64,000 bases of DNA from Octopus sinensis (lineage: Eukaryota): assembly GCF_006345805.1 (NCBI RefSeq), contig NC_043015.1, positions 16,306,001 through 16,370,000 on the forward strand. Direction: 5' to 3'. The first letter of the stretch is position 1; the number at the start of each line of letters is the position of its first letter. Below are positions 35,861-38,800 of the stretch, piece after piece. The position numbers were made by a program.

Positions 35861-38800
35861 TTTTCACTTCTTTAAACCACCCACTGCTGAACTTTGGTAA
35901 TAATTCAATTTAAAACGTCTTTCATTGCAAAGGTTAAATTCATTCTCCCCCTTCTACACACCTGCACCCACCTATCATGAAATTTATCTTAATACCATTG
36001 TTTGATAGTGAATGTACATTCCTTTTGGCAGATGTCGTTTGTCAGTAAAATTACTCTCACATCTCAGATGTTTCTTGTTATAGCTAAGTAGTCAGTTACA
36101 TCAGTCTTAACTCTATCTTAAAACCTATTTCCTTTAACCTTCTTGTATAGTGATGATCTATGATCAACTTAAAATCAAGTAGCTAAGCACACACCAGAAT
36201 ACCACAGCTACTTTTTTTTATACTTAACATCTAGTACTTCATTTTGAACAAGCCTCTCAGAATGAACATCAACTGATGTATATCTAAGAAAAACAGAATG
36301 AACAAGAGATATTTGATAGCAAAATCTTTTAAACCAATATCAAACTTACCTTGTCATGCAATGTCCAACCAACATACTTCAAGTAGCTATCATCGAGAAA
36401 CATGTAAGGGTACTTTCGCATCCACACCCCGATCTCTGATGAACATATTGCTCTTATTTCTGGCTGGGTGTCCCTGCAAAAATGTCAGCAAATCATCAAC
36501 CCATGACTTACCTTGTCATGCAATGTCCAACCGACGTACTTTAAGTAGCTATCATCTAAAAACATATTCGGGTACCTCCGCATCCATACCCCAATTTCTG
36601 TTGTACATATTGACCTTATTTCTGGGTGTGTATCTCTGAAACAGTACAGGAAAACCAGGTTATAAGGCTTTCCCTTTAGTTGTTTAGGACTACAAAATGG
36701 ATATTATATGTTCCTTAGCACATCTGAGTAGGAAGTGATATAAAATCTTTTCACCTTGTAGCTAAAATAATGACTGCTGATGGATGTTATGCCCTCCAAC
36801 TCTTTTTGTTCATCAAAAAGCAGAGGAAGAAATGTCTGATAATGCTACAAGTAACTTTTTGCATTCAAAGATCAGAAAAACAATATCAACCATATCAAAT
36901 GATTGCGACCATTAATAAGAACATTCTAGAGTCTCAAAAGTGACCAACTAGAATGGAACAAGACAAACATTAGAAAATGTAATTTTAGTTGCAGTCAAGT
37001 ACTTTATCAAGTGCAAAAAACTAAAACTAACTATGGAGTAAAAGATCATGCTCCACAAATAACAGTGCCACAATGACAAGAAAGTGTTGAGAAATAAATA
37101 AGACAAATAAAGAAATATTCAAAACATTCTGAAGTCTCAGGTAACCTAGCTCCCAACAGCAGTTTTCTTTTAACTGTGGCTTTGTCAGAAAGAGAACTCA
37201 TATAATGCTTTGAAGGTTAATTAAGAAAATAGGAAAAAGAAACCCTGGCAGGAGTACAAAGGAGGCAATAACAAATTCTCAGACAGATGAAGGATTAACA
37301 ACATTTAGTGCCCATTACTAAAGGCATCTAAGGGTCAGATGGTGGTATTTAAATATACACAACCTTAAAACAAGTACATCTGACAGGCTTCCAGTTTTTG
37401 TTTACCTAATTTCATTCACAAGGCCAAGTTTTATCTGAGAGTCTGATTGAAGATATAGGGTCATCCCATAAATAATGCAGCCTTTTCAATTGTATGAACT
37501 AAAAGGCAGAGGGGGACAGGATAAACTACCTGCATAAATTTGCTATAAAAGCAGGTAGTAATTTTACCTTGTGCTTATTCTTTGTGCAAGTTTTGAAGAG
37601 TACAATTTGATTTTAACAGTTATTTTTCCAAAGCTATAATGGAAGTGACAAAGGAGCATATTTTGCTTTATGAATTTAATAAATGTAACAACGCAATGGA
37701 AAGTGCGAGGAATATTAATGCAGTATATAGGGGTCGGACAATAAGCATAAACCAGTGACAATAATGGTTCCAGAAATTCTGAGCCAGAAAGTACAGCCTA
37801 GAAGATGAGCCTTGTCCTGGAAGAGCTGTAGAGCTCAACAGGGATGTCCTGAAAAACCTGGTGGAACAAAAATCCATTGTAAATGTTGAGGAACTAGTAG
37901 ACAAGCTTGGATTTGGTCATTCGACCATTCATTGGCACCTGTGCACCAACAGAAAAGTCAGCAAATGGGGTCAATGATTCCTCACAAACTTTCTGAGTCT
38001 AATCGTGCGCAGAGAGTGAATGCGTATTCTTCTTTGCTGTTACGTCTCATGAACGAACCTTTTTTGGAATGAATAGTGACTGGTGACAAGAAATGGGTTC
38101 TCTATAAAAATGCCAAGCACCAAAGACAGTGGGTAGGGAAAGGAAAAACACTGGCAGCCCAGGCTAAAGAAGGTCTTCATCTACATAAGGTGTTGTTATC
38201 TGTTTGGTGGAATATGAAAGGTTTAGTCCACTTTGAACTTTTAAATCCAAACCAAACGATAACTCAAGAGATCTACTGTGAGCAGTTTGAGCAACTTGTC
38301 AGTGCTAGAAGGAAAACGACTATCTTTGATTTCAAGATGAAAGGTGTTCTTCCATCAGGATAATGCTTGGCCACATACAGTGAGGATAACATTCCAAAGG
38401 CTGGAGCAGTTTGCATGGGAAACGATACTCCACCCACCATATTCGTCGGACATTGTCCCATCTGATTATCATTCATTCAGCAGTCTTCAAAATCATTTGG
38501 ATGGAAAAAATATGAATTCTGTAGACGAGGTCAGAACAGTACTGGAGGAGTACTTTTCGCCGCGGACAAGTTTGGAGGAGGAGCCTTGCAAGTCTACCAG
38601 ATAGATGGAAGAGTATTGTAGAAAATGAAAGAGAGTATATTTTAGATTAAAAAAAACTTTATCTTAATTTTGAAAAAGAAAAGAAGTATAAAAAAACTGC
38701 ATTATTTATGGGATGACCCAATACTTGCTCGGCCACATGCCCGTGTCCATGTAAGATTAAACTTATCCAAAAGAGATATATTGCACCACATTACAACACA

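What the first reader, a model, noticed from the sequence alone, without database searches (positions are those of the whole stretch)
36350..36635. Tandem, apparently mutually exclusive exons in the regulator-binding region of cohesin SA/STAG
Seen: two 124-nt phase 2-to-0 exons, each with a good acceptor and an AAG|gtaagt donor, both open, separated by 38 nt. They differ at 21 of 124 nt, but only 6 codons change the amino acid (H/Q, S/A, T/S, T/S, R/K, N/Y); most changes are synonymous, which suggests purifying selection on both copies. Three features oppose double inclusion: the spacer is too short for normal splicing, with a candidate branch point (CUGAC) only about 26 nt from the A donor; joining A+B shifts the frame; and retaining the spacer hits an in-frame TGA. 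Skipping both also shifts the frame. Known: this exon carries the DSYLKYVGW motif (human SA2 D326/K330/W334), part of the conserved essential surface bound by CTCF, shugoshin and WAPL. Those residues are identical in A and B, and the variation sits in the preceding helix and loop. Inference: one gene yields two SA isoforms, possibly a splicing-level analogue of vertebrate STAG1/STAG2 paralogs. I know of no report of this, but cannot check the literature.
Basis: partly seen in the sequence, partly recalled or inferred. Interest (0 to 1): 0.92.

Follow-up and report, generated by a model that had tools for sequence, protein, structure and literature searches.

The report
Twin alternative exons in octopus cohesin SA
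An octopus cohesin SA/STAG gene carries two adjacent, diverged copies of one exon that can only be used one at a time, and both copies look kept by selection, so the gene probably makes two slightly different SA proteins, although no transcript with the upstream copy was seen here.

Summary
Two 124-nt exons lie on the minus strand, 38 nt apart. They differ at 21 nt and 6 of 41 residues. Frame and splice sites are as described.

The gene is a cohesin SA/STAG gene whose exon bodies match NCBI's Octopus vulgaris "SA-1 isoform X1".

Both copies behave as coding sequence:
- dN/dS is 0.07.
- 14 of 20 in-frame differences are at third codon positions.
- Both keep 27 of 27 columns that are at least 90% conserved in 30 other animals.
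- An independently assembled, unnamed contig translation (P0001) holds both copies with 41/41 residues each, while its flanks have diverged.

This excludes an assembly artefact and argues against a dead copy.

Mutual exclusion follows from known rules: the intervening intron is too short, and the exon length is 3n+1.

Direct evidence is missing. All 3 spliced or annotated cephalopod models carry copy B and none carries copy A. Junction data and other cephalopod genomes could not be reached.

The parallel with STAG1/STAG2 remains speculation. My searches found no published report. Verdict: a new member of a known kind.

The parts
63442..63515 (-). Upstream constitutive SA exon (74 nt). It ends with two bases of an Arg codon, and its last residues include the equivalents of human SA2 H295/Y297.
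   Evidence: tblastn of P0011, P0010 and P0003; sequence with AG acceptor and GT donor; numbering; contact residues from passages in PMC10279526 and PMC11789155.
36512..36635 (-). Exon A, the upstream copy (124 nt, 1 + 41 codons). It encodes the first half of the stromalin conservative domain. It keeps the outgroup-majority S8 and N23 and has derived H3 and R20.
   Evidence: Pfam SCD 67.1 bits, profile positions 2-42 of 75; 41/41 residues identical in P0001.
36474..36511 (-). 38-nt spacer: a consensus donor, two branch-point-like motifs (A at spacer positions 16 and 27), a short T run and an AG. It carries an in-frame TGA in this window.
   Evidence: In P0001 the TGA position reads Trp, and 2 of 13 translated spacer positions differ.
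36350..36473 (-). Exon B, the downstream copy (124 nt). This is the version present in all cephalopod spliced or annotated models found. It has derived A8 and Y23.
   Evidence: 100% identical to P0003, P0010 and P0011 in this segment; Pfam SCD 66.4 bits.
22456..22554 (-). Downstream constitutive exon (99 nt, phase 0). It encodes the second half of the SCD.
   Evidence: Pfam SCD profile positions 45-75 of 75, 34.8 bits.

Best explanation
This is a pair of homologous mutually exclusive exons in an Octopus cohesin SA/STAG gene. It arose by a small tandem duplication with a copy-to-copy spacing of 162 nt (54 codons).

Proposed mechanism (inferred):
- If exon A is defined, U1 sits on A's donor only about 15-26 nt from any branch point that B's acceptor could use.
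- The 38-nt spacer therefore cannot be spliced out, and A's donor must pair with the exon at 22554, so B is skipped.
- If A is not defined, it is removed with the 27-kb upstream intron and B is used.
- Any transcript with both exons or with neither is frameshifted (124 = 3n+1) and should be lost to nonsense-mediated decay.

The result is two SA proteins that differ at six residues of the first helix and turn of the stromalin conservative domain. These residues lie next to, but not within, the pocket that binds F/YxF ligands. B is the default form. A is probably a regulated minority form.

Shown: the anatomy, the gene's identity, coding-type constraint on both copies, and the presence of the pair in a second assembly.

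Inferred: actual splicing of A, the steric block in octopus, NMD of the aberrant forms, and any functional difference between the isoforms.
For: Anatomy and frames.

Gene identity: exon-by-exon tblastn against P0011, named by NCBI 'cohesin subunit SA-1 isoform X1 [Octopus vulgaris]', with for example 30/30 residues identical at 14926-14837. Both exons hit Pfam SCD above the cutoff. PDB matches are to human SA1 and SA2.

Constraint on both copies:
- Nei-Gojobori counts give Sd 13 over 23.3 synonymous sites and Nd 7 over 99.7 non-synonymous sites; dS is 1.02, dN 0.074, ratio 0.07.
- P = 8e-6 against both copies being neutral. P = 2.4e-3 against one neutral copy with equal branch lengths.
- 14 of 20 in-frame differences are at third codon positions (P = 9e-4).
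- A and B each keep 27 of 27 columns that are at least 90% conserved in 30 non-cephalopod SA proteins.
- Judged by the outgroup majority, each copy has two clear derived residues (A: H3, R20; B: A8, Y23). A is therefore no more decayed than B.
- A's Pfam score is slightly higher than B's.

Second assembly: P0001 is an unnamed 242-aa translation running through intron, A, spacer, B and intron. It has 41/41 identical residues in each exon. Its non-exon columns show 13 mismatches of 89 aligned plus 11 gap columns (Fisher P = 0.005 for each exon).

Precedent for the mechanism (passages read):
- A donor-to-branch-point distance under 50 bp is counted as steric interference in 57 of 629 human clusters, and 377 of 629 have exon lengths not divisible by 3 (PMC5740500).
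- In C. elegans, introns under 40 nt between mutually exclusive exons are never excised, and 14 of 19 clusters with non-3n exons depend on NMD (PMC4165533).

The shortest ordinary intron of this gene in the window is about 130 nt (HSP ends 18957 and 18826).
Against: No transcript or protein with exon A spliced to its neighbours was found.
- Of the 120 hits listed from 176, aligned, the 3 cephalopod spliced or annotated models (P0003, P0010, P0011) all carry B and 0 carry A.
- The search among 22-72-aa proteins gave 6 hits with no cephalopod, of either A or B type, so it is uninformative.
- The protein set is clustered at 90% identity, which would hide an A isoform inside the B clusters. The tool that lists cluster members was not available.

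B's acceptor has only a short T run and a cramped branch-point region, while A's acceptor looks stronger by eye. Yet B is the form seen, so an unknown repressor of A has to be assumed.

The minimal intron size for octopus splicing was not measured.

The six differences are conservative, so a functional difference is not evident.

The P0001 comparison is at protein level only, and the sample is small.
Confidence: 0.72

Rival explanations
1. Exon A is a duplicate that is no longer used, or is used only as splicing noise. The gene makes one protein, with B, and A is a recently silenced relic.
For: All 3 cephalopod spliced or annotated models carry B and none carries A. No A-type fragment appeared in either length class searched.
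Against: Synonymous divergence is about 1.0, yet only 6 residues differ, there is no stop or indel, and the splice sites are intact. The model with one neutral copy is rejected at P = 2.4e-3. 27 of 27 conserved columns are kept. 41/41 residues are identical in P0001 while the flanks have changed. Only a very recent silencing would fit these results.
Confidence: 0.13
2. Exon A acts as a regulatory poison element. Including it together with B, or retaining the spacer, gives a frameshifted or stopped mRNA and lowers SA output.
For: A plus B shifts the frame, and spacer retention meets a TGA in this window.
Against: A poison exon needs no protein-level conservation, yet A keeps every conserved family residue and changes mostly at third codon positions. 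The 38-nt spacer is unlikely to be spliced (precedents). The TGA is absent in P0001, where the read-through stays in frame.
Confidence: 0.06
3. An assembly artefact: two haplotypes or two paralogous loci were joined side by side.
For: None from the calls. Long (TA)n arrays lie nearby in the downstream intron, and such tracts are a setting where assemblies can err.
Against: The same A-spacer-B arrangement occurs in an independently assembled contig translation whose flanks differ. The copies differ by 17%, mostly at synonymous sites. The window has no gap.
Confidence: 0.01

Closest known systems
Homologous mutually exclusive exon pairs whose intervening intron is too short to splice (C. elegans egl-15 5B/5A, 14 nt; let-2 9/10, 30 nt; bet-2, gly-5, gly-6), from passages of PMC4165533
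   Same: Adjacent homologous exons of equal length and phase, with an intervening intron under 40 nt, so double inclusion is physically blocked.
   Different: In those five worm clusters the exons are all 3n long. Here the exon is 3n+1, so a frameshift adds a second safeguard. The gene family differs (cohesin SA). Transcript proof is lacking here.
Human mutually exclusive exon clusters (passages of PMC5740500) and tandem-exon-duplication substitutions (passages of PMC8373072)
   Same: They share the same criteria: homology, the same frame, and neighbouring position. Steric interference is counted at a donor-to-branch-point distance under 50 bp (57 of 629 clusters). Non-3n exon lengths occur in 377 of 629 clusters. 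The usual pattern is one default exon and one regulated exon.
   Different: Neither main text names a STAG or cohesin gene. In one search, 'STAG' and 'cohesin' had 0 occurrences. In one search, 'cohesin' had 0 occurrences, 'stag' had 18 word-start matches, and every one of those in the 12 of 23 places shown was the word 'stage(s)'. Their gene lists are in supplements that I could not open.
Vertebrate STAG1/STAG2 paralogues
   Same: Two somatic SA versions share the ligand pocket. In the 39 residues aligned to this exon, the SA1 and SA2 chains differ at 3 positions and share the residues equivalent to L329, Y331 and W334. SA1 W337 and SA2 W334 are equivalent (PMC10279526).
   Different: They are separate genes that differ along their whole length and in abundance. 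Here only six residues of one exon differ. Whether octopus has other SA genes was not tested.
Alpha-tropomyosin exons 2/3
   Same: The classic case in which a branch point too close to the upstream donor enforces mutual exclusion.
   Different: That case has a longer intron with a distant branch point. Here the whole intron is only 38 nt.

Membership tests
Cohesin SA/STAG (Scc3) family | Stromalin conservative domain (Pfam PF21581) | tested here: met
   Exon A scores 67.1 bits and exon B 66.4 bits (profile positions 2-42 of 75). The downstream exon scores 34.8 bits (positions 45-75). The cutoff is 27.5.
Cohesin SA/STAG (Scc3) family | The rest of the gene encodes the SCC3/SA HEAT-repeat body | tested here: met
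   tblastn places P0011 residues 365-820 in 15 collinear exon matches on the minus strand from 63518 to 1577. P0011 carries PF08514, PF21581 and PF24571. The STAG domain proper (P0011 residues 250-355) lies outside the window.
Cohesin SA/STAG (Scc3) family | Pocket residues that bind F/YxF ligands (human SA2 Y297, L329, W334; also R298, Y331) | tested here: met
   By the alignment the equivalents are present and identical in A and B. The residue lists come from passages of PMC10279526 and PMC11789155. Binding itself was not tested.
Homologous mutually exclusive exons (tandem exon duplication) | Neighbouring exons of the same length, same splice phases and clear sequence homology | tested here: met
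   Both exons are 124 nt with phase 2 in and phase 0 out. They are 83% identical in nt and 85% in aa.
Homologous mutually exclusive exons (tandem exon duplication) | Both copies under coding constraint | tested here: met
   dN/dS 0.07; 14 of 20 differences at third codon positions and 27 of 27 conserved columns kept by each copy; 41/41 residues identical in P0001.
Homologous mutually exclusive exons (tandem exon duplication) | Each exon is joined to both flanking exons in transcripts, and the two are never joined productively to each other | not testable with these tools
   No read or transcript collection for this animal was available. B is seen spliced in P0010 and P0011. A was not seen spliced.
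Steric-hindrance class of mutually exclusive exons | Distance from the upstream exon's donor to the branch point of the downstream exon is below the spliceosome's minimum (under 50 bp in human, or an intron under 40 nt in C. elegans) | tested here: met
   The whole spacer is 38 nt, so any branch point lies 26 nt or less from the donor. The octopus minimum itself was not measured.
NMD-backed class of mutually exclusive exons | Exon length is not a multiple of 3, so double inclusion or double skipping shifts the frame | tested here: met
   124 = 3n+1, and A followed by B runs into stops. Decay of such transcripts was not tested.
RNA-structure (docking/selector) class of mutually exclusive exons | Competing conserved base-pairing around the exons | tested here: not met
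   The fold of 36680..36320 is no more stable than shuffled sequence (z = -0.31; 34 of 100 shuffles fold at least as well). No inverted repeats were found in 36000-37000. No cross-species DNA was available to test covariation.

The most novel reading that the evidence does not exclude
A single 162-nt in-frame tandem duplication gave octopods a built-in either/or switch. The switch makes two cohesin-SA flavours that differ on the helix and turn flanking the F/YxF ligand pocket. The minority A form would be deployed in particular cell types or stages (germ line, embryo, neurons) to retune cohesin's dealings with partners such as CTCF, shugoshin or WAPL. That would be a splicing-level counterpart of the vertebrate STAG1/STAG2 split, in a clade where, according to a 2023 review (PMC10658181), no functional data on cohesin exist.
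Probability: 0.25. Interest if true: 0.75.

Novelty: new member of a known kind. Interest (0 to 1): 0.5.

Why it matters
SA/STAG is the cohesin subunit that receives regulators at one conserved pocket. Vertebrates diversified it by gene duplication. If octopods diversify the same domain by mutually exclusive splicing, that gives a natural six-residue swap for asking which surfaces next to the pocket tune cohesin behaviour. It would also add a chromatin-architecture gene to the list of tandem-exon-duplication isoforms, which is rich in channel and cytoskeletal genes. The locus is also a clean example of a duplication that was mutually exclusive from birth, through a short spacer and a 3n+1 exon. 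If exon A proves unused, the finding shrinks to an unusually well preserved exon duplicate.

Tried and rejected
- **Evidence of A in proteins.** I searched with the exon A peptide among longer proteins (176 hits, 120 listed) and among near-length proteins (6 hits). The only A-type hit was the unspliced P0001.
- **Tandem pairs in other lineages.** The search over all representatives (606 hits at E <= 0.001, best 150 listed) gave only P0001 as a diverged pair. P0127 repeats a roughly 200-aa block that looks identical by eye and appears to be a model or assembly artefact. P0128 is a low-complexity false hit. P0145 holds three partial copies.
- **Third copy in the window.** None: tblastn at E <= 10 found only A and B for this segment.
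- **Origin of the spacer.** Alignments to the intron after B and the intron before A show nothing convincing beyond the splice sites.
- **RNA-structure switch.** Not supported.
- **Structure.** An AlphaFold2 model of P0003 with a 33-row alignment has mean pLDDT 62.6 and 52-74 over the exon. I used it only for secondary structure. Position 3 lies in the loop after the long upstream helix. Positions 8, 11, 12 and 20 lie in helix 394-410. Position 23 lies in the short turn 412-415. The conserved motif lies in helix 418-431.
- I did not build, fold or search a spliced A or B isoform. The third homologous-protein search, the complex prediction and the atlas were left unused as unlikely to decide anything.
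- **One poor literature search.** One search was badly specified (0 of 15 listed papers contained the phrase) and is uninformative.

Full report
**What is there**

On the minus strand, 36635..36512 (exon A) and 36473..36350 (exon B) are two 124-nt open segments, separated by 38 nt.
- Each segment begins with one base that completes a codon and ends on a codon boundary.
- Each follows an AG acceptor and precedes the same consensus donor.
- A repeat finder that knows nothing of exons reports the pair as one 136-nt direct repeat, 84% identical, with a spacing of 162 nt. The similarity ends 6 nt outside each exon.
- Retaining the spacer meets an in-frame TGA. A followed by B shifts the frame into stops.
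- The window has no N.

**The gene**

Exon-by-exon tblastn with three cephalopod proteins from the protein search places 15 collinear matches on the minus strand from 63518 to 1577. These cover residues 365-820 of P0011, which NCBI names cohesin subunit SA-1 isoform X1 of Octopus vulgaris.
- Where P0011 and the unnamed P0010 differ, the window follows P0011. At 14926-14837 it matches P0011 at 30/30 residues and P0010 at 26/30. The window is therefore from O. vulgaris or a very close relative.
- The upstream exon ends in AG at 63442, so the split codon reads Arg with either exon.
- The downstream exon starts at 22554.
- Both A and B match the first half of Pfam's stromalin conservative domain (67.1 and 66.4 bits, cutoff 27.5). 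The downstream exon supplies the second half.
- Against solved structures, exon position i corresponds to human SA2 residue i+298.

**Is exon A alive?**

Four sequence-level tests say yes.
1. *Substitution pattern.* Nei-Gojobori counts give 13 synonymous differences over 23.3 sites and 7 non-synonymous over 99.7 sites. That is dS about 1.0, dN 0.074 and a ratio of 0.07. The pattern rejects two neutral copies (P = 8e-6). It also rejects one neutral copy beside a fully constrained one with equal branch lengths (P = 2.4e-3).
2. *Codon position.* 14 of the 20 in-frame differences fall at third codon positions (P = 9e-4).
3. *Conserved columns.* In an alignment with 30 non-cephalopod SA proteins, 27 of the 41 columns are at least 90% conserved, and A and B each keep all 27. 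The six A/B differences all lie in the variable columns. Judged by the outgroup majority, A keeps S8 and N23, where B is derived. B keeps Q3 and K20, where A is derived. Both share the derived R19 and H39 and a non-Met at position 11. The duplication therefore came after those changes, and neither copy is the decayed one.
4. *A second assembly.* The protein search returned P0001, an unnamed 242-aa translation that runs unspliced through intron, A, spacer, B and intron. Aligned to the window, it has 41/41 identical residues in A and 41/41 in B. Its non-exon columns show 13 mismatches of 89 aligned plus 11 gap columns, and the stretches further out are only 45-53% identical (Fisher P = 0.005 for each exon). 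Its tail after B differs from both the window and the O. bimaculoides model P0003, so it is a third source. This also removes the assembly-artefact reading.

**What P0001 takes away**

In P0001 the spacer's stop codon reads Trp. Neither the TGA nor that branch point is a conserved safeguard. A second branch-point-like motif, with its A at spacer position 16, lies in residues that are unchanged in P0001. Because 162 is a multiple of 3, read-through stays in frame in that source.

**Mechanism**

The two remaining safeguards are the strong ones, and both are textbook.
- A 38-nt intron leaves at most 26 nt between A's donor and any branch point for B. The human survey counts under 50 bp as steric interference (57 of 629 clusters). 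The C. elegans survey never saw introns under 40 nt between such exons excised (passages).
- The exon length is 3n+1, which is the condition under which 14 of 19 worm clusters rely on NMD.

I infer that the switch is the definition of exon A. Once U1 sits on A's donor, B's acceptor is unusable and A must join the exon at 22554. Otherwise A leaves with the 27-kb intron and B is used.

No RNA-structure switch is indicated. The fold has z = -0.31, and no inverted repeats were found.

**What is missing**

No spliced A was seen.
- Among the 120 hits listed from 176, the three cephalopod spliced or annotated models (P0003, P0010, P0011) all carry B.
- The 22-72-aa search returned 6 proteins. None is a cephalopod of either type, so it says nothing.
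- Clustering at 90% identity would hide an A isoform, because it differs by only 6 residues in about 1,340. The member listing was unavailable.
- The search over all representatives found no further diverged pair among its best 150 hits.
- Other cephalopod genomes and reads could not be reached, because the only open contig collection holds bacteria and archaea. The age of the duplication beyond "old, dS near 1" is therefore open.
- I did not build or search a joined A or B isoform. All searches were exon by exon, so isoform modelling with the kleisin and a peptide was left out.

**Where the differences sit**

In the passages I read, the following human residues contact ligands:
- SGO1 contacts SA2 Y297 and W334 in one pocket, and L329, L366 and F367 in the other (PMC10279526).
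- ANKRD11 contacts STAG2 W334, F367 and F371, and also H295, Y297, R298 and Y331 (PMC11789155).

The equivalents that fall in or next to this exon are identical in A and B. The variable positions correspond to SA2 residues 301, 306, 309, 310, 318 and 321, and none of these is named in those passages.

A modest-confidence model of P0003 (pLDDT 52-74 over the exon) puts position 3 in the loop just after the Tyr-Arg pair. Positions 8, 11, 12 and 20 lie on the next helix, and position 23 lies in the following turn.

Over the same 39 aligned residues, the SA1 and SA2 chains differ at 3 positions.

**Literature**

My searches found no report of mutually exclusive or tandem-duplicated exons in an SA/STAG gene.
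- Full-text searches. One search was poorly specified and is uninformative.
- Term look-ups inside the human and worm catalogues.
- The catalogues' gene lists are in supplements that I could not open.
- NCBI's isoform set for this gene could not be inspected. It may already contain an A form.
- A 2023 review states that no functional data on cohesin exist for spiralians (PMC10658181).

**Verdict**

The STAG1/STAG2 analogy is speculation. This is a new member of a well-known kind, and of moderate interest.

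Noticed in passing
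window 29258-29970 and 32231-35836: Two long, imperfect (TA)n arrays (about 0.7 kb and 3.6 kb, 73-75% matches) lie inside the 14-kb intron downstream of exon B. They account for the GC dip to 0.13.
   Followed up: partly
P0001 (unnamed protein-set entry), residues 143-155: In this second source the spacer between the two exons has no stop (Trp where the window has TGA). An unspliced A-spacer-B read-through would stay in frame there and would insert 54 residues.
   Followed up: partly
P0145 (unnamed, 79 aa): A short translation holds three partial, diverged copies of the second-helix motif of this same exon. Its residues resemble the bivalve hits. This may be a separate small-scale duplication of this exon region in another mollusc.
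   Followed up: no
P0127 (unnamed, 704 aa): An SA-like protein from another taxon repeats a block of roughly 200 residues that includes this exon. The two copies look identical by eye. This looks like an assembly or gene-model artefact rather than alternative exons.
   Followed up: no
P0003 (UniProt O. bimaculoides model), last 6 residues: The model ends by reading from exon B into the following intron. Its tail matches the window's intron translation at 5 of 6 residues, so it is a truncated gene model.
   Followed up: partly
window 36636-36660 versus 36474-36490: By eye, exon A has the longer pyrimidine tract before its acceptor, while exon B has only a short T run and a cramped branch-point region. 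Yet B is the form found in models. If that holds, A must be actively repressed in most tissues. No splice-site scoring tool was available.
   Followed up: no
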